This document shows positions 4,212 through 57,273 of a stretch of 64,000 nt of DNA, in pieces. Source of the DNA: Candidatus Dormiibacterota bacterium (lineage in GTDB: Bacteria; Chloroflexota; Dormibacteria; Dormibacterales; Dormibacteraceae). The position numbers were made by a program, and so were the translations under genes. Location: assembly GCA_003169845.1 (NCBI GenBank), contig PNAG01000028.1, forward strand, positions 19,490 through 83,489, given 5' to 3'. Within the stretch, counting starts at the first letter, position 1, and every line of letters begins with the position of its first letter. The notes under the pieces were generated by a model that was given only the letters and a program-made list of their open reading frames with translations, was not told where the DNA came from and did not search any database.

Positions 4212-5369
4212 TTAGTCCGGTCCGCGAGCCACCGCTCCGAATGTGACCATCGGCGGGATGGTCAGCATGCGGCCGTCATCGGCACGAACGATCTGCCAGT
4301 TGCCCTCGTGCACCATCCAGTGATGCCGGTAGCAAAGCAAAGTCAGGTTGGGCGGTTCATTGGTTCCGCCATGGATCCAGTGCCGGATGTGGTGTCCCGA
4401 GGCCCAGCTCGCCGGGCGCTCACAGCCCGGCCAGGTACAGCCCCGGTCACGGACATTGAGCGCCTTGCGCGCCGGTCCCGAGATCGTCCGCTTGGCCCGC
4501 CCGACATCGATCACCACCGACCTGGAGTCGAGAATGATGCGAGTGACCGAGGCGTCGCAGGCCAGCCGCTCCACGGTCTTGGAGGAGACAGGCATAGAGG
4601 AGAACTCCATGTCCGCCGCCGGCGCGCCAGGGAGTCCGAGCAGAGTCTCGAGGGAGGCGGTGACCTGGAGATGAGTGCGCTGCGATCCCTGCTGTGGGAT
4701 CAGCCCGGAGTCAAGTGCGTGCAGGGAGAGATCGACCAGGGCATCTGCCATCCGCTTCTCCCGACACCGATCGTCGTGCTTACCTGAGCGGCGCACCAGC
4801 GGCTCCAGCGCGGTCCGGATCGAAGCCCCGCCGACGGGATCGAAAACGCCATTGATCCAGACCGCCCCATCCTCGCCGGTGCTGATCCAGAGCTTGCGGT
4901 TCTCCACCAGGTCCGCCTGCTCGGCCTCGTAACCCTTGCGGTCGGCGGAGTGCCGGTAGTGGTTGCAGAGGTAATAGAACTTGCCCGGCGAGTTCTCCCG
5001 CGCCTTGGCGAGCAGCAAAGCCTCATCGAATTTGCTCCCCACGGCTCTCGCCGTCCTGGCCACCGCCTTCAGATGAGCAAAGCCGATCTCGCCACTGGAA
5101 ACCGCCTGGGTGCTTTCCGGCACCCGCTCCAGGCTTTCACCGACCGCGATCAGGTCGGCGGCGGCAGTGCTGGTCTGGTGGCAGTTGAAGCGAATCCAGT
5201 CGATCGGGCTGGCGTAGCCCCATTTGTCGTACTCATCGGTGGCGGCAAAGCGAGCCGCCACGCGGGAAGCGCGGATGAGCAACAGATCCACCTGATGAAG
5301 CAGCTGCTCGAGCTCTTCACCGGCCTCCGCACCGGGCGTTCGAGGCTGCACGTCTTGCGTCGCGAGCAT
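4212..5369 (-). CDS. DUF222-type HNH endonuclease (13E12-repeat-like family), paralog 1
   Basis: 385 aa. C-terminal HNH/Zn motif CTWPGCERP..HHIRHW..GG.T...NLTLLCYRHHWMVHEG; N-terminal DUF222-like helical region. Confidence 0.8.
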   Translation of the reverse strand: MLATQDVQPRTPGAEAGEELEQLLHQVDLLLIRASRVAARFAATDEYDKWGYASPIDWIRFNCHQTSTAAADLIAVGESLERVPESTQAVSSGEIGFAHLKAVARTARAVGSKFDEALLLAKARENSPGKFYYLCNHYRHSADRKGYEAEQADLVENRKLWISTGEDGAVWINGVFDPVGGASIRTALEPLVRRSGKHDDRCREKRMADALVDLSLHALDSGLIPQQGSQRTHLQVTASLETLLGLPGAPAADMEFSSMPVSSKTVERLACDASVTRIILDSRSVVIDVGRAKRTISGPARKALNVRDRGCTWPGCERPASWASGHHIRHWIHGGTNEPPNLTLLCYRHHWMVHEGNWQIVRADDGRMLTIPPMVTFGAVARGPD

Positions 5370-5375
5370 GAAGAC

Positions 5376-5404
5376 AGACTACCAAACAAACGTTCGATAG
5401 TCAA
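5376..5404 (-). promoter_or_regulatory. Putative promoter with embedded SOS-box-like site for HNH paralog 1
   Basis: Minus strand reads TTGACT-17 nt-TAGTCT-6 nt-ATG. The spacer contains CGAACGTTTGTTTGG (GAAC-N4-GTTT at 5384-5395). Confidence 0.5.
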
Positions 5405-22528: not shown

Positions 22529-22593
22529 TTTCCCTCCCCCGCCAGGGGGAGGGAAGGGGTGGGGGGCGACCTGAGCCCGCTACCCCCTCCGCC
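22529..22593 (+). repeat. G/C-rich palindromic repeat, copy A
   Basis: Perfect 10 bp arms TCCCTCCCCC-GCCA-GGGGGAGGGA, followed by AGGGGTGGGGGGCGACCTGAGC. Lies between convergent genes and supplies the last codons of the FeS subunit. Confidence 0.75.
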
Positions 22594-23449
22594 TTTGCAC
22601 GAACTCGAACCCGAATCGTCCTTTCACGCACAGGTGTCCCTCGGTGACGCTGTGGTCGAGCGGCGAGGTCACTTTCACGATCGAGTTGTCCTGCACGTGA
22701 AGCTCGAGCATGCAGCCGACCCCGCAGTAAGGGCACACCGTCTCGGTCACCGTCTGCTGTGACTCGTCCCAGGTGCCGGCCTGGCGCATGTCGTACTCGC
22801 TCTTGAACATCAGCGCGCCGGTCGGACACACGCCGATGCAGTTTCCGCAGTAGACGCAGGCGGATTCGGGCAGCGGCGCGGTGAACTCCGTCGCGATGTG
22901 AGCGTCGAAGCCGCGGCCCGCCACACCGATCGCGAAAGTGTTCTGAGCATCTGCGCCACACGCCTCGACGCACTTGTAGCAGAGGATGCAGCGCGAGTAG
23001 TCGCGGACATAGAGGTCGTTGTCAATCTTCACCGGCTGCGCAACCGTCGCGACGTTTTCGCCAAAGCGCTCCGGGGTAGCTCCGTACCGCCGCATCCATC
23101 CATGGACCTGCGGCGAGCACAGCGACATGTCAACCGATGACGCGAGGAGCTCGAGCACGAGGCGCCGGCTGTGACGCACCCGCTCCGAGTCGGTCTGGAT
23201 CTTCATGCCCGCCTCGACCGTGCGCGAGCAGGCCGGGACCAGCACGCGCGACCCCTCCACCTCGACCACGCAAACACGGCAGACGTTGACCGGCGTCAGC
23301 GTCTCGAGCTGGCACAGAGTCGGCGTGTCGATGCGAAGCTGCCGGCACGCGTCGAGGATGGTCGCGCCCTCGAGCACGTCCATCTCCTGGCCGTCGATGC
23401 TCACCTTGACCAACCGCTTCGGCAGACCGACGAATACTCGCTCAGCCAT
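22580..23449 (-). CDS. Formate dehydrogenase Fe-S subunit (N-terminal NuoG-like part of FdhA)
   Basis: 289 aa carrying a 2Fe-2S ferredoxin domain, two 4Fe-4S motifs and the molybdopterin-type 4Fe-4S domain. Motifs: CRVC.., CILCYKCVEAC, CVYCGNCIGVCP, then CPYCGVGC...LCVKGRFGFEF. The ORF stops where the catalytic domain normally begins. Confidence 0.8.
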   Translation of the reverse strand: MAERVFVGLPKRLVKVSIDGQEMDVLEGATILDACRQLRIDTPTLCQLETLTPVNVCRVCVVEVEGSRVLVPACSRTVEAGMKIQTDSERVRHSRRLVLELLASSVDMSLCSPQVHGWMRRYGATPERFGENVATVAQPVKIDNDLYVRDYSRCILCYKCVEACGADAQNTFAIGVAGRGFDAHIATEFTAPLPESACVYCGNCIGVCPTGALMFKSEYDMRQAGTWDESQQTVTETVCPYCGVGCMLELHVQDNSIVKVTSPLDHSVTEGHLCVKGRFGFEFVQRRRG

Positions 23450-25232
23450 TGATCACCTTGAGCTGTGTGAGTCCCGACGCGATCGCGTTCGCCGCCGTCT
23501 GGCCCAGCCCACAGATCGACGCATCGCGCATCGCCTGCGCGATGTCGCTCAGAAGGCTCATGTCGGAGTCGCGTGCCTCTCCGTTGCGATCGCTGAGCAG
23601 CCGGTGCAGGACCTCTTCCTGCCGCACCGTGCCGACGCGACAGGGCACGCACTGCCCGCACGACTCATCGCGGAAAAACCGCGCGATGCGAAGCAGGATC
23701 TGCTTCACGTCGGCGGAGTCGTCGAGAACGATCACGGCGCCGGATCCAAGGGTCGCCCCGATCGCGCGCGTCCCCTCGAAGCTGAGCGGGACGTCGAGCT
23801 GCCGCTCGGTGACGAACGAACCGGCCGCTCCGCCGAGCAGCACCGCTTGCAGGCTGTGGCCGTCGCGCAGGCCGCCGGCGAGGTCGATCAGCGCCCGCAG
23901 CGTCGTGCCCATGGGGACCTCGTAGAGGCCAGGTTCGCGTACGTGGCCCGAGAGGCAGAAAAGCCGCGTCCCGGTGGAGTCGGGAGTGCCGGTCGCCGCA
24001 AAAGCGGCTCCTCCCTCGACGACGATGTCCAGCACGTTGACCAGCGTCTCCACGTTGTTGACGAGCGTCGGCTTGCCAAAGAGACCCGCCTGCACCGGGA
24101 ACGGCGGCTTGTTGCGCGGCTCGCCGCGCTTTCCCTCGATCGAGTTGAAAAGCGCAGTCTCCTCGCCGCATATGTAGGCTCCCGCGCCCCGGCGGACCTC
24201 GATGTCGCAATCTAGAAATCCACGCGCGCGAGCCTGGTCGATAGCGTTTTCGATCCGACGCCTCGCCAGCGGATACTCACCTCGGACGTACAGGTAGCCC
24301 TTCTCACACCCGGTGGCAAACGCGGCGATAGTCATCCCCTCGATCACAGCGAATGGATCACGCTCCATCAGCTCGCGGTCCTTGAAGGTTCCGGGTTCGG
24401 ACTCGTCCGCGTTGCACACGATGTAGTGAGGGCGGACCGGGGCTTTCGACACGGAATCCCACTTGCGCCCGGTTGGGAACGCCGCACCTCCTCGGCCGAG
24501 CAGCTTCGCTTCCGTCACCTGGCGGATGACGCCTTCAGGACCGAGCTCGATCGCCCGCCGCAGCGCGGCGTAGCCGCCATGCTCGCGGTAGCTGTCGATG
24601 CTCTCGGGATCGACGACACCAATCCGCCGCAAGAGCTTGCGTGGACGGTCAGGCAGCGCGGGGACTTCTGCTTGAGGCCAATCGCTTCCACGCAGGATGT
24701 CCTGCGCCACGTCGATGGTGAGGGGCGCCACCTGGCGCTCGTCGTGAGCTGCTCCCGCACGCTCCACCAGAGCCGCCGGTGCTCGGTCGCACAGGCCGAG
24801 ACAGGGGCTGCGATGCCACGTCTTGCCCGCCGGACCGGCGGTCTTTTCGAGCGCCTCGCACAGGGCGTCGGCGCCCGCGCACTTGCAGGCGATGTCATCG
24901 CAGACGTGAAGCACGAGGGGCGGCCTTTCGTCGAGCGCAAAGCGTCCGTAGAAGCTCACGACTCCGTAGGCCTCTGCCGGGGGGATCGACAACCTGCGGC
25001 ATGCGTACTCCAGTCCGCCACGGCTGACCCAGCCGACTCTGTCCTGGATCGCGTGAAGCACCGGGAGCAGCAGCGGGCGCCGAGACCGCGCGGCGGCGCC
25101 GCCGAAGCCGACGTGGTCGTCCTCCGGCCGGCGCGTCCCACCCTCCCAGAGCGAAGCGGGGTCGCCGAGCAAGCCGTCGACCGCCGCGATCTCCTCGGCC
25201 GTCGGTGGCCCCCCGGTGGTCCGGATGTCCAC
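23442..25232 (-). CDS. NAD-linked formate dehydrogenase diaphorase subunit (NuoE-like + NuoF-like fusion)
   Basis: 596 aa with an N-terminal thioredoxin-like 2Fe-2S part (VCDDIACKC...CLGLCD). The NuoF FMN/NADH core follows (GRGGAAFPTGRKW, ESCGQCVPCR). Confidence 0.85.
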   Translation of the reverse strand: MDIRTTGGPPTAEEIAAVDGLLGDPASLWEGGTRRPEDDHVGFGGAAARSRRPLLLPVLHAIQDRVGWVSRGGLEYACRRLSIPPAEAYGVVSFYGRFALDERPPLVLHVCDDIACKCAGADALCEALEKTAGPAGKTWHRSPCLGLCDRAPAALVERAGAAHDERQVAPLTIDVAQDILRGSDWPQAEVPALPDRPRKLLRRIGVVDPESIDSYREHGGYAALRRAIELGPEGVIRQVTEAKLLGRGGAAFPTGRKWDSVSKAPVRPHYIVCNADESEPGTFKDRELMERDPFAVIEGMTIAAFATGCEKGYLYVRGEYPLARRRIENAIDQARARGFLDCDIEVRRGAGAYICGEETALFNSIEGKRGEPRNKPPFPVQAGLFGKPTLVNNVETLVNVLDIVVEGGAAFAATGTPDSTGTRLFCLSGHVREPGLYEVPMGTTLRALIDLAGGLRDGHSLQAVLLGGAAGSFVTERQLDVPLSFEGTRAIGATLGSGAVIVLDDSADVKQILLRIARFFRDESCGQCVPCRVGTVRQEEVLHRLLSDRNGEARDSDMSLLSDIAQAMRDASICGLGQTAANAIASGLTQLKVING

Positions 25233-27166
25233 TAGGTTCTGATGCCTGCGGGCAGCTTCTCGATCCTGATCGCGCTGGCTTTGAACTCGGCCGTGCCTGA
25301 CTTGGGATCGGTCGCGTCGATGGTGAGGACGTTGGTGGCCACCTGGTCGGGAAAGTGAAGCGTGAGGAACGCCAGGCCCGGCCGCAGCGATTCGTCAAAC
25401 CGGATCGGCACCTCGACCGACCCTCGGCGCGAGCTGGCAAGGACCCGCTCGCCGTCATGGATGCCGAGCCGCTCGCCGTCCGCCGGCGAGATCAGGAGCG
25501 CCTCCCTCTTGCGCAGCGGCGAGCTGTATTGGTTGCTCTGCACGCCGGTGTTGAACGAGTCGAGCCGCCGGCCGGTGGTGAGCCGGATTGGAAAGTCCTT
25601 CGTCAGGCGGTCGACTGGCGGGTCGTGCTCCACGGCGTGAAACGGTGCCGGCATCCCTTCGACAGGGTCCTTCCACAATCGCGCGTGCAGGAACTGAGTG
25701 CCTGGGTGCGACTCGTCTGGGCAGGGCCACTGGATTCCGCCAAGCTCGTCGAGCCGCGCGTACGACATCCCGGCGTGCATCGGCGAAAGCTCGCGGCACT
25801 CATCCCACACCTGCTCGGCGGTCGGGCGACCCCAGTCGCACCCGAGCCGGCGAGCGAGCTCGCCGATGATCTCGAGATCGTCACGGGCCCCGACCGGCGG
25901 CTCCAGCGCACGGCGAACGCGCTGCACGCGCCGCTCGCTGTTGGTGACCGTGCCGTCGGACTCCGCCCAGCCGGCCGTCGCGGGCAGCACGACGTGAGCC
26001 AGCTCCGCCGTTTGGGTCAGGAAGATGTCCTGCACGACCAGGTGCTCGAGGCCGCCGAGCAGTCGAACCGCGCGAGTTTGGTCCGCCTCGCTGCGCGCCG
26101 GGTTCTCGCCCACGATGTAGGCCGCTGTCAGCTCGCCATGCTCCATAGCGTCGAACATCTCGCTGAGGTGGTAGCCCTTCTTGTCGGGAAACTGAGCGCC
26201 GCCCCACGCGCGTGAGAACTTGGCGTGGATGTCAGGTTCCTGGAGGTCCTGGAACCCGGGCAGCCGGGCGGGGATGGCGCCCATGTCACCGCCTCCCTGG
26301 ACGTTGTTCTGGCCGCGCAGCGGATTCAGGCCGCAGCCGTAGCGGCCGACCTTGCCGGTGAGCAGCGCGAGGTTGATCAGCGCCAGCACGTTGTCGGTGG
26401 CGTTGTGATGCTCGGTGATGCCAAGCGTCCAGCAGATCATCGCCCGTTCGGCGCGCGCGTATTCGAGCGCGACGTCCCTGATCGCGTCTGCAGGCACCCC
26501 GGTTTCTTTCTCAGCAACCTCGAGCGTGTAAGCCTCGACGCAGCGGGCGAACTCCTCATAGCCCGTCGTGGCCCGCTCGATAAACTCCTTGTTCGCCAGG
26601 CCCGCGTGGATGATCACGCGCGCCATTGCGTTGGCCAGCGCGATGTCGCTGCCAACATCGATGCCCAGCCACACGTCGGCCCACTGCGCGGAGCTGGTGC
26701 GCCGCGGATCCACCGCCACCAGGCGTGCTCCGTTACGGACGCCGCGGAGCAGGTGATGGAAGAAGATCGGGTGCGTCTCGCGCGCGTTGGAGCCCCACAG
26801 GATCACGAGGTTCGTTTCCTCAGCCTCGCGATACGAGCTGGTTCCTCCTCCGGCTCCGAACACTGTCGCCAGACCGGCGACGCTTGGAGCGTGTCAAGTC
26901 CGGTTGCAGCTGTCGATGTTGTTGCTGTGCATCACGGCGCGAGTGAACTTCTGCGCGATGTAGTTCATCTCGTTGCTCTGCTTGGAGCAGCTGAACATCC
27001 CGAAAGCGTTCGGCCCTCGGGTCCTGGCCGTCGCGAAGCCGGCCGCGGCCAGCTCGAGCGCCTCCTCCCAGGAAGCGGGGCGCAGCCGCCCACCTTCTCT
27101 GACGAGAGGCTCGGCCAGACGGACGAGCCCGTCATCCATGAGAAGGACAATATAGGAGCGTGCCAC
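25232..27166 (-). CDS. fdhA: Formate dehydrogenase catalytic (Mo/W-bis-PGD) subunit, selenocysteine at in-frame TGA 26894-26896
   Basis: ORFs 26894..27166 and 25232..26863 share one frame. Read-through gives NNIDSCNRT-U-HAPSVAGLATVFGAGGG, and a SECIS-like hairpin follows. The start may be ATG at 27139. Confidence 0.8.
26865..26881 (-). promoter_or_regulatory. SECIS-like stem-loop (GUCGCC-GGUCU-GGCGAC) 12 nt downstream of the UGA
   Basis: Perfect 6 bp stem. The GGUCU loop sits at codon +7 after the UGA, the same offset I recall for the E. coli fdhF SECIS. Confidence 0.65.
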
Positions 27167-27176
27167 GCTGTGAGCT

Positions 27177-27716
27177 ATGAGCGACGAACATAATCGGCCG
27201 CTAGCCGAAACTGTCGTTCTGGTTCCAGCGCTCGACGTAGGTCAGTTGGTGCACGAGCTTCGGATGCAGCACGACCCAAGTGCTGCCGCTGGAATACCTC
27301 CCCACGTCACCCTGATGTTTCCATTCATGCCTCCATCAGATCTAAATGCACCTGCAATTGACACGCTTGACAGAGTTATCAGCAGCGCGGGAGCTTTCCA
27401 GTTTTCTCTAACGGGGGTGAACCAATTCGAACAGGGTGTCGTCTACCTAGAGCCAGAACCTGTCGAGCCCTTTGCCCGCCTGACGAGAGAGATCAGTCGG
27501 CAGTTCGGCATTCTGCCTTTCGACGGTGATTTCGGGGACGAGCCAGTGGTTCATCTAACCGTCGCAGTAGTTGAGTCAGCCTCAATACGTCAGCAGCTAG
27601 CAACCCAGCTAGGCGGCGTAGTCCCGATTGTCATCAAAGCTGAAGAAGCGTGGCTCATGGTTGGCACCAATGCCAGCACATGGAACATCGTTCGAAAGAT
27701 GCGGTTTCGCAGCTGA
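27177..27716 (+). CDS. 2H-phosphoesterase / 2'-5' RNA ligase (LigT-like) family protein
   Basis: 179 aa with two H-x-T-x motifs (PHVTLMF and VHLTVAV). Visibly lower GC than the flanking sequence. Confidence 0.65.
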   Translation: MSDEHNRPLAETVVLVPALDVGQLVHELRMQHDPSAAAGIPPHVTLMFPFMPPSDLNAPAIDTLDRVISSAGAFQFSLTGVNQFEQGVVYLEPEPVEPFARLTREISRQFGILPFDGDFGDEPVVHLTVAVVESASIRQQLATQLGGVVPIVIKAEEAWLMVGTNASTWNIVRKMRFRS

Positions 27717-27729
27717 ATCCCGCGCGACG

Positions 27730-29013
27730 CTAGCTGTTGGGTGCGGCCCGCGCCTCAGCAAAAGCGCACGCATCCGCGATCAGGCTAACCGCGTAGCTGA
27801 ACTGCATCGCCTCGCCGCCCCACAGCGACAAAGGCGTGCTCGGACCGATGTCCGGATGCCTGTGCGCGCTCACCGGATCTCGAGCCGGTGGCTGGATCAC
27901 ATGTCCGTCGTCTGTCTCGAATGAAAATCCGCCCACTATTTTGCGGATGCGATACGCACCCGAGTGGTGACGCCGGTGATGAAACCCGCACAAAAGCAGG
28001 AGGTTGTCCAGGTTGGTTTCGCCACCGAGCGCCCAATGCTCATGGTGATGAGCTTCTGTACGGTACGCCGGCACGCCACAACCAGGAAACCGGCAGAAGC
28101 GATCTCTCACGTGGACCGCCAGGCGCAGCCGGTCCGGCACCATGCGCTGCTTGCGGCCGACATCGATCGGCAATCCATCCCTTTCGGTCACACCGATCAC
28201 CTCGGCCTCGCAGCCGATTCGCCGCGCCGCGCCGGCCGACAGCGCTGAACCGCCTTCGACAAAACACCGTCCTGCGCTCTCCCCGGTGAGCACCCCAACG
28301 TCGACATGCACCACGACCTGGCGTGCTGCAGTCGACGTGACCAGGTTCTCCGCCCCACCCGCGACCACGTGCTCGCACATCGCCACCAAGGCATCAACTT
28401 TGCGCGCCGCCCAGCGGTCGTCGGCCGGCTCCGGCACCGGCCGCGATCCGGTGATCGACTCCAGCGCAGCCTGCACCACGGCGGCATCTTCGGGCGTGAG
28501 CCTGGCCACGAGCTCGAGCATGCCGTGCTCGTCCCAGTGCATCCAGATCCCTCGCCGCGAGAGATGGTCTTCGGCTTGCTCGGGAGCATCGGCCTCGGCG
28601 ATCCGTCGCAGCGAACGGCAGATCCTCGCCAGCTGGGCGCCAGATGCGCCTTGCGCAATCTCGAGCAGAAACTCATCCGTCGCGGGAGTCGCCACCGTCG
28701 TGATCTGCCGGACCTTGTCGAACGACAGCTGCCCGGCCTCGAACGCCGCGGCTATCTTTGGTAGCAACCTCATCGCCTGACCAACTCGCAGCAACTCGGC
28801 GCCGGTGTGCATATCGAACCCGGTCTTGATCGTCAGCCAGTGTGGGAAGGACCGGATTCCACCACCGCTCCAGCCACCGATCGCATCGAACTCGACGCTC
28901 GCTTTGGCGACCTGTGCCAGCGCCACGTGGGCGTAGGCCGAGACCTCGCCGATCCGGTCGTCAAGAGCCTTTGCGAGGTCCTGATTCTCTGGGCTGGTCG
29001 ACGCGTACTCCAC
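27730..29013 (-). CDS. DUF222-type HNH endonuclease (13E12-repeat-like family), paralog 2
   Basis: 427 aa. HNH/Zn motif CRFPGCGVP..HHHEHW..GGETNLDNLLLLCGFHHRRHH; N-terminal DUF222-like region. Confidence 0.8.
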   Translation of the reverse strand: MEYASTSPENQDLAKALDDRIGEVSAYAHVALAQVAKASVEFDAIGGWSGGGIRSFPHWLTIKTGFDMHTGAELLRVGQAMRLLPKIAAAFEAGQLSFDKVRQITTVATPATDEFLLEIAQGASGAQLARICRSLRRIAEADAPEQAEDHLSRRGIWMHWDEHGMLELVARLTPEDAAVVQAALESITGSRPVPEPADDRWAARKVDALVAMCEHVVAGGAENLVTSTAARQVVVHVDVGVLTGESAGRCFVEGGSALSAGAARRIGCEAEVIGVTERDGLPIDVGRKQRMVPDRLRLAVHVRDRFCRFPGCGVPAYRTEAHHHEHWALGGETNLDNLLLLCGFHHRRHHSGAYRIRKIVGGFSFETDDGHVIQPPARDPVSAHRHPDIGPSTPLSLWGGEAMQFSYAVSLIADACAFAEARAAPNS

Positions 29014-29020
29014 ACATCAA

Positions 29021-29041
29021 ACTATACCAAACAGACGTTCG
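29021..29041 (-). promoter_or_regulatory. SOS-box-like site plus -10 element for HNH paralog 2
   Basis: Minus strand reads CGAACGTCTGTTTGG-TATAGT-7 nt-GTG. GAAC-N4-GTTT lies at 29029-29040, nearly identical to the site at 5384-5395. Confidence 0.5.
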
Positions 29042-56103: not shown

Positions 56104-56172
56104 TAACACTTCTCCGCTTGATGGAGGAGTCCACCGGGCGCGGGGATCGGAAGTCTCCGCCATTGAACTGGG

Positions 56173-56568
56173 GTGATAGCAATGGACCTTCGGCTGATCG
56201 ACTACGTGGTCTACCTCGTCGCCAGTGTGCTGCTGACCGTGTGGGTCGGGAACACGCTCTTTCGCAACGGCCGGCCCTTCCTGGTGTCGGTGTTCCTGGA
56301 AGCCGGCCTGGCCGACTCGGTCAACCGCCTTCTCGTCGTGGGCTTCTACCTCGTCAACCTGGGCGCCGCCGCTTTGCTGATCAACGCCGGAGGAGCGCCT
56401 GCGACGGTGGGCGACATGGTCCAGGAGACGGTGACGCGAATCGGAGTCGTCCTTCTCGTGTTGGGCGGGATGCACTTCTCCAACATGTTCGTGTTCCACC
56501 TCATCCGCCGGCCCCTCAGGCAGCGCTCCGTGCCGCCTCCGCCCTACCAGCCGGCGCCCGGTGCCTGA
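56173..56568 (+). CDS. Hypothetical integral membrane protein
   Basis: 131 aa with 3-4 predicted TM helices and a Pro-rich tail. Lies directly upstream of the TetR gene. Confidence 0.5.
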   Translation: MIAMDLRLIDYVVYLVASVLLTVWVGNTLFRNGRPFLVSVFLEAGLADSVNRLLVVGFYLVNLGAAALLINAGGAPATVGDMVQETVTRIGVVLLVLGGMHFSNMFVFHLIRRPLRQRSVPPPPYQPAPGA

Positions 56569-56577
56569 GCCAGGCAG

Positions 56578-57273
56578 TTGAACACTGCTTCCGCGGTCGA
56601 ACCACACCGGAACAAACGCGGCGAAAGCTCGAGGGCGGCCATCTTCGGCGCCGCCCTCGACCTGTTCCAGGAACGCGGGTACGAAGCGACGACCATGCGC
56701 GCCATCGCGGTCCGGGCTGGGGTGTCGCTGGGAAGCTCCTACCACTACTTCCCGTCCAAGGAGCACCTCGTGCTCGAGTTCTACCGGCACACGCACGAGC
56801 TGCACCTTGCGGTGATCGCTCCGTTGCTGAGCCGCGAAAAAGACCTCGCGGCCAGGCTCCGGGGCGTGATCCGCGCCGTCATCGTCACGTGCGAGCCCTT
56901 CCACGGCGTGGCCGGCTCGATCTTCAGCTCCGTGGCAAACCCGGCGAGCGCTGTGAACCCGTTCGGTCCCACCTCCCGGGCGCTGCGCGATGAGGTCATC
57001 GCGATGTATGCCGAGGTGGTCAGCGGTTCGGACGCCAAGGTCCCCTCGGACCTGGCGGCCGAGCTCCCGCTTCTGCTGTGGCTGTACCAGATGGGAATCC
57101 TTTATTTCTGGATCTTCGACCGCTCCCAGGGACGCCTGCGCACGCTCGAGGTCATCGATCAGACCACAGACCTGATCGTTCGATTGATAAGCCTTGCCAA
57201 CCTGCCGGTCCTGCGCGGCTCGCGCCGCCGTGCGCTCGCGCTGGTCCGGAGCATCGCCGAAGGCTCTCACTGA
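56578..57273 (+). CDS. TetR/AcrR-family transcriptional regulator
   Basis: N-terminal HTH: AAIFGAALDLFQERGYEATTMRAIAVRAGVSLGSSYHYFPSKEHL. Confidence 0.85.
   Translation: MNTASAVEPHRNKRGESSRAAIFGAALDLFQERGYEATTMRAIAVRAGVSLGSSYHYFPSKEHLVLEFYRHTHELHLAVIAPLLSREKDLAARLRGVIRAVIVTCEPFHGVAGSIFSSVANPASAVNPFGPTSRALRDEVIAMYAEVVSGSDAKVPSDLAAELPLLLWLYQMGILYFWIFDRSQGRLRTLEVIDQTTDLIVRLISLANLPVLRGSRRRALALVRSIAEGSH

What the first reader, a model, noticed from the sequence alone, without database searches (positions are those of the whole stretch)
25232..27166. Selenocysteine formate dehydrogenase hidden behind an in-frame TGA with a SECIS-like hairpin
- **One frame, one TGA.** Minus-strand ORFs 26894..27166 and 25232..26863 are in the same frame. 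They are separated only by TGA (26894-26896) plus ten sense codons.
- **Active-site match.** Read-through gives ...MHSNNIDSCNRT-U-HAPSVAGLATVFGAGGGTSSY.... This is the Sec active-site context of Mo/W-bis-PGD formate dehydrogenases; as I recall, E. coli FdhF reads ..ARV-U-HGPSVAGL.
- **Hairpin.** Twelve nt after the UGA there is a perfect 6 bp stem GUCGCC/GGCGAC with loop GGUCU (26865-26881). The GGUCU loop begins at codon +7 after the UGA, the same offset as the GGUC-containing apical loop of the fdhF SECIS as I recall it.
- **Consequence.** An automatic annotation would call a pseudogene or two fragments.
Basis: partly seen in the sequence, partly recalled or inferred. Interest (0 to 1): 0.75.

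Follow-up and report, generated by a model that had tools for sequence, protein, structure and literature searches.

The report
Selenocysteine formate dehydrogenase, split alpha subunit
The in-frame TGA is a genuine, deeply conserved selenocysteine codon with its insertion hairpin in a formate dehydrogenase gene, an ordinary kind of selenoprotein, but here the catalytic subunit has lost its iron-sulfur domain to a separate gene at the end of the operon.

Summary

**The gene.** One minus-strand gene runs from ATG 27139 to TAG 25232 (635 codons). It carries UGA at codon 82 (26896-26894).

**The UGA is the catalytic codon.**
- It aligns with Sec140 of E. coli FdhH. The His and Arg partners are conserved.
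- It aligns with the catalytic Cys of fused relatives at 46% identity.

**Comparative evidence.**
- All 77 related loci where the site can be read carry TGA at this codon. They come from MAGs labelled Dormibacterota, Chloroflexota, Actinomycetota, Acidobacteriota and others.
- dN/dS is about 0.05-0.25 on both sides of the codon.
- Synonymous sites are frozen only in codons +5 to +9, which form the 6-bp hairpin. Its GGUC loop bases sit at the same distance from UGA as in the fdhF SECIS.
- 22 of 80 related loci carry selA, selB, selD and/or tRNA-Sec next to the gene.
- The window itself (64 kb) has none of these, so the machinery of this genome is untested.

- The protein lacks the proximal [4Fe-4S] domain.
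- That domain ends a 289-aa HoxU-like protein encoded last in a translationally coupled operon: Moco subunit, NuoE-NuoF fusion, FeS subunit.
- This fission and gene order hold in nearly all related loci where the flank is long enough.

Sec-FdhA is the commonest bacterial selenoprotein, so interest is modest.

The parts
25232..27139 (-). Catalytic (Mo/W-bis-PGD) subunit of a formate dehydrogenase. 635 codons including Sec82. Starts ATG 27139-27137 and stops TAG 25234-25232. Lacks the proximal [4Fe-4S] domain.
   Evidence: - Pfam Molybdopterin + Molydop_binding, no Molybdop_Fe4S4.
- TIGR01591 matched at model positions 53-672 only: 648.7 bits against a cut-off of 666.25.
- 38% identical to E. 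coli FdhH residues 61-688.
- Aligns to R. capsulatus FdsA residues 308-931.
26894..26896 (-). UGA codon 82, read as selenocysteine (the Mo/W ligand).
   Evidence: - Aligns with U140 of FdhH and with Cys of fused relatives.
- TGA in 77 of 77 readable related loci.
- dN/dS is 0.08-0.25 over the 78 codons upstream and 0.05-0.19 over the 120 codons downstream.
26865..26881 (-). SECIS upper stem-loop GUCGCC-GGUCU-GGCGAC, nt 16-32 counted from the U of UGA. Loop bases are G22 G23 U24 C25 U26.
   Evidence: - Predicted in the MFE and centroid folds.
- Paired in 61 of 61 distinct non-E. coli sequences. Changes are only C-G to U.G (16), U-A to U.G (8) and one U-A double change.
- Third-position entropy is 0.00 bits at codons +5, +6, +8 and +9, and 0.24 at +7. 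The gene-wide mean is 1.24.
- Loop GGUC sits at the same positions as in E. coli fdhF.
23442..25232 (-). NuoE-NuoF fusion (HoxF/Fdh1B-like diaphorase, 596 aa): predicted [2Fe-2S], FMN/NAD(H) site and [4Fe-4S]. Its GTG start shares one base with the TAG of the catalytic gene.
   Evidence: - Pfam 2Fe-2S_thioredx, Complex1_51K, SLBB and NADH_4Fe-4S.
- PDB hits include the FoDH1 beta subunit, FdsB and HoxF. The match ends at residue 589 of 596, so there is no extra C-terminal ferredoxin domain.
- Cys motifs.
22580..23449 (-). HoxU/NuoG-N-terminal-like Fe-S subunit (289 aa). It ends with the Molybdop_Fe4S4 domain, which is the proximal cluster of the catalytic subunit supplied in trans. Its ATG overlaps the NuoEF stop by 8 nt.
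   Evidence: - Pfam Fer2_4, Fer4 dicluster, and Molybdop_Fe4S4 at residues 233-285.
- Aligns to FdsA residues 16-303 and to TIGR01591 model positions 1-50.
- Cys46/57/60/74, 154/157/160/164, 198/201/204/208 and 239/242/246/274.

Best explanation
The region encodes the catalytic subunit of a cytoplasmic, probably NAD(P)+-linked, molybdenum or tungsten formate dehydrogenase whose metal ligand is selenocysteine.

**Decoding (inferred by analogy with E. coli fdhF).**
- When the ribosome reaches UGA82, the hairpin 12 nt downstream recruits SelB-GTP-Sec-tRNA(Sec).
- The hairpin's loop presents G23 and U24.
- Sec is inserted instead of termination, giving a 635-residue protein.

**Electron path (inferred from domain homology).**
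- Sec82, His83 and Arg275 form the formate-oxidising site on the bis-PGD cofactor.
- Electrons leave through a proximal [4Fe-4S] cluster. Unusually, this cluster is not part of the same polypeptide.
- It is carried by the C-terminal 55 residues of a separate HoxU-like Fe-S protein, which also carries one [2Fe-2S] and two [4Fe-4S] clusters.
- That protein passes electrons to a NuoE-NuoF fusion with FMN, where NAD(P)+ is reduced.

**Operon.** The three genes form one translationally coupled operon in the order Moco subunit, NuoEF, FeS subunit.

**Shown versus inferred.**
- Shown: the sequence anatomy, homology, conservation of the TGA, the RNA-level constraint, and linkage to sel genes in relatives.
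- Inferred: Sec insertion in this organism, complex formation, NAD(P)+ as acceptor, and the identity of the metal.
For: **Sec codon and catalytic site.**
- One frame with a single TGA.
- The catalytic triad aligns with FdhH. Fused relatives carry Cys-His at that position.
- TIGR01591 is the best family by far: 648.7 bits against 398.5 for the nitrate reductase NasC.

**Conservation.**
- TGA in 77 of 77 readable loci, in the context DSCNRT-U-HAPSV[AV]GL.
- dN/dS well below 1 on both sides, with synonymous differences at about 0.4-0.7 of sites.

**RNA-level constraint.**
- Four-fold sites are invariant only in codons +5, +6, +8 and +9.
- The 5-codon window starting at +5 has the lowest third-position entropy in the gene: 0.048 bits against a mean of 1.24.
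- The stem pairs in 61 of 61 sequences.
- The loop GGUC is in the same register as E. coli fdhF.

**Linkage to Sec machinery in relatives.**
- tRNA-Sec lies beside the orthologue in 12 loci. It accounts for 12 of the 17 tRNA predictions ARAGORN made in those loci, some of the other five lying inside coding sequence.
- selA, selB or selD lie within 6 kb in 22 loci. Pfam confirmed SelA and SelD for L027.

**Operon architecture.**
- Clean fission: FdsA residues 16-303 against 308-931, and TIGR01591 positions 1-50 against 53-672.
- Conserved gene order and overlapping stop/start codons.
Against: - No selA, selB, selD or tRNA-Sec in the 64-kb window.
- None within 6-10 kb of the closest loci, labelled mostly Dormibacterota. 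The machinery of this genome is therefore unverified.
- No Rfam SECIS model reaches threshold: SECIS_3 scores 13.2 bits against a gathering score of 63.
- Covariation is minimal because the stem hardly varies: one double change. Shuffles are not exceeded.
- The predicted lower stem is not conserved.
- The bulged U17 of the E. coli element is paired here.
- No fdhD, fdsC, fdsD or cofactor genes were found among the roughly 45 window ORFs scanned.
- Activity, metal and acceptor are untested.
Confidence: 0.9

Rival explanations
1. Pseudogene: a nonsense mutation or sequencing error has broken a former Cys-type formate dehydrogenase gene.
For: - Gene callers split it into two ORFs.
- No Sec machinery in the window.
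Against: - The same TGA is present in 77 of 77 readable loci from independent assemblies and several phyla.
- Both flanks have dN/dS of 0.05-0.25 despite near-saturated synonymous change.
- The frame is never shifted.
- The hairpin's synonymous sites are frozen.
Confidence: 0.01
2. Two real genes: termination at TGA gives an 81-aa peptide, and the 543-aa protein is started independently at GTG 26863. The two pieces then assemble.
For: - A GTG lies 10 codons after the TGA in the window.
- This enzyme family has clearly tolerated one fission elsewhere, between the FeS and Moco parts.
Against: - Codon +11 is GTG in only 48 of 75 distinct sequences. The rest are GTC, GTT or GTA, which cannot start translation.
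- The ten codons between TGA and GTG are perfectly conserved as protein (HAPSV[AV]GLA[TA]) and include the catalytic His.
- The essential metal ligand would be missing.
- sel genes and tRNA-Sec flank the orthologues.
Confidence: 0.02
3. UGA is read through, but not as selenocysteine in this lineage. For example, it could be Cys or Trp by near-cognate or SelB-independent suppression, because the organism has lost the Sec pathway.
For: - Sec machinery was not found near the gene in the window or in the closest loci, labelled mostly Dormibacterota.
- No paper in the searched library links Dormibacterota with selenocysteine.
Against: - The SECIS hairpin is held invariant at synonymous sites inside the subset of closest loci too (L001-L019). 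That makes sense only if SelB still binds it.
- The position is the Sec/Cys metal ligand, so a TGC/TGT mutation would be the easy escape. It is never seen.
Confidence: 0.05

Closest known systems
E. coli formate dehydrogenase H (FdhF, PDB 1AA6/1FDO) and its fdhF SECIS
   Same: - 38% identity over 632 aligned positions.
- Sec-His dyad and Arg333 equivalent.
- UGA followed by C.
- Hairpin whose loop GGUC occupies nt 22-25 after the U of UGA.
   Different: - FdhH carries its own N-terminal [4Fe-4S] domain (residues 1-60). The window protein starts at the equivalent of residue about 55-61.
- FdhH hands electrons to the hydrogenase-3 complex (my own knowledge), not to a NuoEF diaphorase.
- The E. 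coli hairpin has a 4-nt loop and a bulged U17. Here the loop is 5 nt and U17 is paired.
NAD+-dependent FdsABG(D) of Rhodobacter capsulatus / Cupriavidus necator (PDB 6TGA, 6TG9)
   Same: Same modules: a NuoE-like, a NuoF-like, a HoxU-like Fe-S part and an FdhF-like Moco part (PMC7171172).
   Different: - FdsA is one 958-aa chain with Cys386. Here it is split after the proximal-cluster domain (FdsA about residue 305), and the ligand is Sec.
- The gene order is Moco-NuoEF-FeS instead of fdsGBA.
- NuoE and NuoF are fused.
- The motif for the His-ligated A4 cluster is absent.
- No fdsC or fdsD nearby.
Methylobacterium extorquens tungsten FDH1 / FoDH1 (PDB 7E5Z, 7VW6)
   Same: - The beta subunit is a NuoE-NuoF fusion.
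- Its alpha N-terminal region is the best PDB match of the window's FeS subunit: 151 bits.
   Different: - The alpha subunit is fused (about 990 aa).
- It is Cys-type (my own knowledge).
HoxFU diaphorase of NAD+-reducing [NiFe] hydrogenases (PDB 5XF9)
   Same: - Two-protein diaphorase: HoxF is NuoE-like plus NuoF-like, and HoxU is a NuoG-N-terminal-like Fe-S protein.
- HoxF aligns to residues 52-585 of the fusion.
- The HoxU model NF005745 hits the FeS subunit at 140 bits.
   Different: - The partner is a Sec-Moco subunit, not HoxHY.
- The HoxU-like protein carries an extra Molybdop_Fe4S4 domain.

Membership tests
Mo/W-bis-PGD formate dehydrogenase alpha subunit (FdhA/FdhF, TIGR01591) | Molybdopterin and Molydop_binding domains | tested here: met
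   PF00384 at 233 bits and PF01568 at 85 bits.
Mo/W-bis-PGD formate dehydrogenase alpha subunit (FdhA/FdhF, TIGR01591) | Sec/Cys-His dyad and conserved Arg at the active site | tested here: met
   - U82-H83 and R275 align with U140-H141 and R333 of FdhH.
- Cys-His in fused relatives.
Mo/W-bis-PGD formate dehydrogenase alpha subunit (FdhA/FdhF, TIGR01591) | Proximal [4Fe-4S] (Molybdop_Fe4S4) domain on the same polypeptide as the cofactor | tested here: not met
   - No PF04879 in the Moco protein. The domain is at residues 233-285 of the separate 289-aa protein.
- TIGR01591 model positions 1-50 and 53-672 are split between the two proteins.
Mo/W-bis-PGD formate dehydrogenase alpha subunit (FdhA/FdhF, TIGR01591) | Score above NCBIfam's curated cut-off | tested here: not met
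   648.7 bits against 666.25. The shortfall coincides with the unmatched first 52 model positions.
Mo/W-bis-PGD formate dehydrogenase alpha subunit (FdhA/FdhF, TIGR01591) | Formate oxidation / CO2 reduction activity | not testable with these tools
   Needs enzyme assays.
Bacterial SECIS element | In-frame UGA at a catalytic Sec/Cys position, conserved among orthologues | tested here: met
   77 of 77 readable loci.
Bacterial SECIS element | Stem-loop just downstream of UGA with G-U exposed in the apical loop, at fdhF-like spacing | tested here: met
   - The stem starts 12 nt after UGA. Loop is G22 G23 U24 C25 U26.
- E. coli has GGUC at nt 22-25.
- The roles of G23 and U24 are from my knowledge of the E. 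coli literature.
Bacterial SECIS element | RNA-level selection beyond the coding constraint | tested here: met
   Synonymous-site entropy is about 0 only in codons +5 to +9, and this window is the lowest in the gene.
Bacterial SECIS element | Compensatory base-pair changes | tested here: inconclusive
   The stem is nearly invariant: one double change and 24 wobble changes. It is not above shuffles.
Bacterial SECIS element | Match to a curated SECIS covariance model | tested here: not met
   Rfam SECIS_3 scores 13.2 bits against a gathering score of 63, E = 4.5. From memory, untested here: Rfam's bacterial SECIS models cover narrow groups, which would make the miss weak evidence.
Bacterial SECIS element | selA, selB, selC and selD present in the same genome | not testable with these tools
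   - Absent from the 64-kb window.
- Present beside orthologues in 22 of 80 other loci.
NAD+-dependent FdsABG-type formate dehydrogenase | NuoE/NuoF-like diaphorase with FMN/NADH site encoded with the catalytic subunit | tested here: met
   The genes overlap.
NAD+-dependent FdsABG-type formate dehydrogenase | Single FdsA chain joining the HoxU-like and FdhF-like parts | tested here: not met
   - Two genes separated by the NuoEF gene.
- They align to FdsA residues 16-303 and 308-931.
NAD+-dependent FdsABG-type formate dehydrogenase | Cys ligand and fdsC/fdsD accessory genes in the operon | tested here: not met
   - Sec instead of Cys.
- The neighbours are LigT, DUF222-HNH, an ECF sigma factor and trp genes.

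The most novel reading that the evidence does not exclude
This is an undescribed class of soluble formate dehydrogenase.

**Architecture.**
- The alpha subunit has undergone fission just after its proximal [4Fe-4S] domain, and the operon has been circularly permuted (Moco, NuoEF, FeS).
- The first electron-transfer step, from pterin to the proximal cluster, therefore crosses a subunit interface.

**Distribution.**
- The class appears to be obligately Sec-dependent. No Cys form was seen among the 77 readable loci or the 120 nearest proteins.
- It has spread with a near-identical SECIS among MAGs labelled as at least four soil phyla, in Chloroflexota together with selABCD and tRNA-Sec.
- It would be the first evidence, within the searched library, for selenocysteine use in Candidatus Dormibacterota, if the window's organism belongs there as its nearest relatives' labels suggest.
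Probability: 0.45. Interest if true: 0.5.

Novelty: new variant of a known kind. Interest (0 to 1): 0.38.

Why it matters
**Annotation.**
- Metagenome gene callers cut this gene at the UGA. All 120 nearest database entries are fragments of about 524-544 aa.
- Surveys may therefore undercount or mis-score formate oxidation capacity and selenium dependence in soil lineages such as Dormibacterota, Limnocylindria, Gaiellales and Acidobacteriota.

**Enzymology.**
- A natural FDH whose proximal Fe-S cluster is supplied in trans is a ready-made test of how much the covalent link between cluster domain and cofactor domain matters.
- That link has been described as shared by all FDHs (PMC7171172).
- The split also suggests a modular route for engineering CO2-reducing enzymes.

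**Limit.** The Sec/SECIS part itself adds nothing conceptually new.

Tried and rejected
- **Rfam.** Nothing at gathering threshold in the whole window. In a permissive scan, SECIS_3 reached only 13.2 bits.
- **Hairpin stability.** Not convincing against shuffles.
- **Covariation.** The stem is too invariant to exceed the controls. The extended lower stem from the MFE fold is not conserved: pair 9-42 is unpaired in 37 of 62 sequences. I dropped the lower stem from the element.
- **Sec machinery in the window.**
  - ARAGORN found no tRNA.
  - tblastn with E. coli SelA, SelB and SelD found nothing.
  - Pfam on about 45 ORFs showed only housekeeping genes.
- **Closest relatives.** A 10-kb flank around a syntenic relative (L087) also had no sel genes.
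- **Other hidden selenoproteins.** A strict scan for coding-like ORF pairs joined by TGA flagged only 56566. That site is the boundary between a membrane-protein gene and a gene whose product reads (by eye) like a TetR-type regulator. With its cut-offs the scan did not flag the FDH TGA itself, so it is not sensitive.
- **Electron bifurcation (HydABC/Bfu type).** Considered and rejected. The match to Bfu-type NuoF homologues ends at residue 589 of 596, leaving no room for their extra C-terminal segment.
- **Literature.** No paper in the searched library combines Dormibacterota with selenocysteine, and none describes a split FdsA.
- **Not attempted.** I ran no further search on finding this genome's sel genes.


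Full report
**1. The observation**

The minus strand of 25232-27166 translates in one frame with a single internal stop, TGA at 26896-26894. The two are separated by the TGA and ten sense codons.

Read-through gives ...NNIDSCNRT-U-HAPSVAGLATVFGAGGGTSSY... Twelve nt after the UGA lies the perfect hairpin GUCGCC-GGUCU-GGCGAC (26881-26865). It appears in the minimum-free-energy and centroid folds.

That gene reads CCARV-U-HGPSVAGL, and its predicted apical loop is GGUC at nt 22-25 counted from the U of UGA. The window has the same four bases at the same positions.

The predicted annotation consequence is also real. JGI calls an 81-aa and a 543-aa gene on the source contig, which is metagenome 3300037155, Ga0395911_000003, 1.2 Mb. 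The 120 nearest proteins in the 5.8-billion-protein collection are all fragments of about 524-544 aa, nearly all 543, covering only the part after the TGA.

One correction concerns the start. It is most likely ATG 27139 (MDDGL...), 81 codons before the UGA, for two reasons:
- Two orthologues have a stop at codon -82.
- Two independent annotations use this start.

**2. Is it more than chance?**

The hairpin's stability alone is not persuasive. The z-score is -1.55 for 48 nt and -2.5 for 23 nt. No Rfam model reaches threshold. The comparative data decide the matter.

A scan of one genome per GTDB species with the 543-aa part returned 80 loci at 70-91% protein identity. That query is blind to the codon in question.
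- The closest loci are labelled mostly Candidatus Dormibacterota.
- Others are labelled Chloroflexota (many on contigs of 0.2-2.5 Mb), Thermoleophilia/Gaiellales, Acidobacteriota, Rokubacteria and Planctomycetota.
- In all 77 loci where the site can be read, the codon is TGA, in the context DSCNRT-U-HAPSV[AV]GL.

Against the closest loci, dN/dS is 0.08-0.25 for the 78 codons upstream of the TGA and 0.05-0.19 for the 120 codons downstream. Synonymous differences are at 0.4-0.7 of sites. Both halves are therefore kept as one coding sequence.

Third-position entropy was measured across 76 orthologues.
- It averages 1.24 bits at 294 conserved four-fold-type codons. Only 1.4% of them fall below 0.1 bits.
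- Codons +5, +6, +8 and +9 after the UGA are at 0.00 bits, and codon +7 is at 0.24.
- Codons +2 to +4 and +10 to +20 vary freely (1.1-2.0 bits, apart from the two-fold Phe codon at +12).
- The five-codon window starting at +5 is the lowest in the whole gene, at 0.048 bits.

These frozen codons are exactly the hairpin. The six stem pairs form in 61 of 61 distinct non-E. coli sequences. The only changes keep pairing: C-G to U.G (16 sequences), U-A to U.G (8), and U-A in L024. Formal covariation is therefore uninformative, because the stem is too invariant. The longer lower stem of the MFE fold is not conserved.

**3. What the gene is**

Family and structure searches:
- Pfam finds Molybdopterin and Molydop_binding domains.
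- NCBIfam's best model is TIGR01591, formate dehydrogenase alpha, at 648.7 bits. The next best, the nitrate reductase NasC, scores 398.5.
- BLASTP against E. coli FdhH gives 38% identity over 632 aligned positions. U82, H83 and R275 align with U140, H141 and R333.
- The best solved relatives are the FdhF of the T. kivui HDCR, a formate dehydrogenase chain in PDB 7BKB, FdhH, and FdsA of R. capsulatus.

An exhaustive search of 1.84 billion cluster representatives shows where the clade sits.
- The clade itself is represented only by proteins that begin just after the TGA position.
- The nearest intact relatives are fused proteins of about 900 aa at 46% identity or less.
- These carry Cys-His at the homologous position, for example ...NCARLCHAPTVAGL...

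The TGA therefore sits where Cys-type enzymes have their metal ligand.

**4. Sec machinery**

The window has no tRNA at all and no SelA, SelB or SelD homologue. Pfam on about 45 ORFs shows a core chromosomal region: uvrA/B/C, gap-pgk-tpi, whiA, sodA, secG, and trp and aro genes. The closest loci, and a syntenic relative examined with 10-kb flanks (L087, GCA_037025585.1), also lack sel genes nearby.

In 22 of the 80 loci, however, selA, selB, selD and/or tRNA-Sec lie within 6 kb upstream of the orthologous gene. These are mainly Chloroflexota/Limnocylindria, plus two bins with other labels.
- tRNA-Sec accounts for 12 of the 17 tRNA predictions ARAGORN made in those loci, some of the other five lying inside coding sequence.
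- SelA (374 bits) and SelD were confirmed by Pfam in L027.

This is the arrangement described for Sec-FdhA in general (PMC1794560). For the window's own genome the machinery remains untested. The invariant hairpin within the subset of closest loci argues that SelB still reads it.

**5.

The catalytic protein has no N-terminal Fe-S part.
- Its alignment to FdhH starts at FdhH residue 61.
- Its alignment to TIGR01591 starts at model position 53.
- Its alignment to R. capsulatus FdsA starts at residue 308.

The missing piece is encoded two genes downstream.
- After a NuoE-NuoF fusion (25232-23442, 596 aa) comes a 289-aa protein (23449-22580).
- This protein has a [2Fe-2S] motif, two ferredoxin-type [4Fe-4S] motifs and, at its very end, the Molybdop_Fe4S4 domain (C239, C242, C246, C274).
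- It aligns to FdsA residues 16-303 and to TIGR01591 positions 1-50.

The FdsA-type alpha subunit has thus been split cleanly. The cut is not at the HoxU/FdhF module junction (about residue 250 of FdsA; PMC7171172). It falls about 55 residues later, so the proximal cluster travels with the HoxU-like protein.

The three genes overlap: TAG/GTG share one base, and ATG...TGA overlap by 8 nt. The order Moco, NuoEF, FeS is kept in nearly all related loci with enough flank, sometimes with inserted genes.

The NuoEF fusion resembles HoxF and the beta subunit of M. extorquens FDH1. Its match to Bfu-type homologues ends at residue 589 of 596, leaving no room for their extra C-terminal segment.

A plausible but untested origin is tandem duplication of an ancestral nuoEF-fdhA operon followed by loss of the outer parts.

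**6. Mechanism**

Shown:
- Anatomy, homology and the conserved UGA.
- RNA-level constraint on the hairpin.
- Operon coupling.
- sel linkage in relatives.

Inferred:
- SelB-GTP-Sec-tRNA(Sec) binds the hairpin loop (G23/U24) while the ribosome is at UGA82 and inserts Sec.
- Sec82 ligates Mo or W.
- Electrons from formate pass to the in-trans proximal cluster, then through the HoxU-like clusters to the NuoF [4Fe-4S] and FMN, and finally to NAD(P)+.
- There is no signal peptide or twin-arginine motif at the N-terminus (sequence), so the enzyme should be cytoplasmic.

**7. Rivals**

- Pseudogene or sequencing error is excluded.
- Two separately translated genes is excluded for three reasons:
  - The supposed restart codon is GTG in only 48 of 75 distinct sequences.
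  - The ten intervening codons, including the catalytic His, are conserved as protein.
  - The ligand would be lost.
- Read-through with another amino acid cannot be excluded for this genome without its sel genes. It does not explain the frozen hairpin.

**8. Comparison and novelty**

A Sec-containing FdhA with a downstream SECIS is textbook. FdhA is the most widespread bacterial selenoprotein (PMC1794560). On that count the finding is correct but ordinary.

Two things lie outside the descriptions I could find.
- The fission that puts the proximal [4Fe-4S] on another polypeptide, with the permuted operon. A review-level statement holds that all FDHs share a bis-MGD subunit that also binds the proximal cluster (PMC7171172).
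- Selenocysteine use in Dormibacterota. No paper in the searched library combines the two terms.

The literature search covers only open-access papers and preprints, so absence of prior description is not proven. I rate the finding a new variant of a known kind, with modest interest.

Noticed in passing
window 27140-29100: A segment of about 1.96 kb holds a DUF222-HNH endonuclease gene (27730-29013, minus strand) and a LigT-like 2'-5' RNA ligase gene (27177-27716, plus strand). It sits between the aminotransferase gene and the FDH operon. In the syntenic relative L087 (GCA_037025585.1) those two are only about 34 nt apart. This looks like an insertion directly upstream of the FDH start, so the operon's promoter region differs from the relative's.
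   Followed up: partly
window 4212-5378 and 27730-29013 (both minus strand): There are two DUF222-HNH genes in the window. They are only 26% identical as proteins and share no DNA similarity, so they are distant paralogues rather than copies of one recent mobile element.
   Followed up: yes
window 56167-57273 (+): A second pair of coding-like ORFs is joined in frame by TGA (56566). It is the boundary between a gene for a hydrophobic, probably membrane, protein with no Pfam hit and a gene whose product reads (by eye) like a TetR-type regulator. It is not a selenoprotein.
   Followed up: yes
window 22529-22556 (minus strand): A G+C-rich inverted repeat CUUCCCUCCCCC-UGGC-GGGGGAGGGAAG lies about 25 nt after the stop of the FeS-subunit gene. 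It could be the operon's terminator, but it has no T-run and was not picked up by the terminator scan.
   Followed up: partly
L027, L028, L047, L053, L062, L063, L066 (0-6 kb upstream of the FDH gene): In these loci, labelled Chloroflexota or Candidatus Limnocylindrales, a compact cluster lies next to the FDH gene: selB-selA-tRNA-Sec on one strand and selD on the other. The tRNA-Sec genes are 97-99 nt. In some loci, genes with no Pfam hit (for example L027 7.5-10.1 kb) are inserted between the Moco and NuoEF genes.
   Followed up: partly
L001, L008, L010, L012, L013 (record titles): Some contigs have an FDH 84-91% identical to the loci labelled Dormibacterota, yet are labelled Eisenbacteria, Verrucomicrobiia, Acidoferrum, Micrarchaeaceae archaeon or Limnocylindrales. 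These labels probably reflect mis-binning, so phylum counts from MAG titles should rest on the long contigs only.
   Followed up: no
window 22580-23449 (FeS subunit residues 90-120): The HxxxCxxCxxxxxC motif of the His-ligated [4Fe-4S] cluster (A4 of R. capsulatus FdsA, N5 of complex I) is absent. It is also absent from the aligned M. extorquens FDH1 alpha sequence.
   Followed up: no
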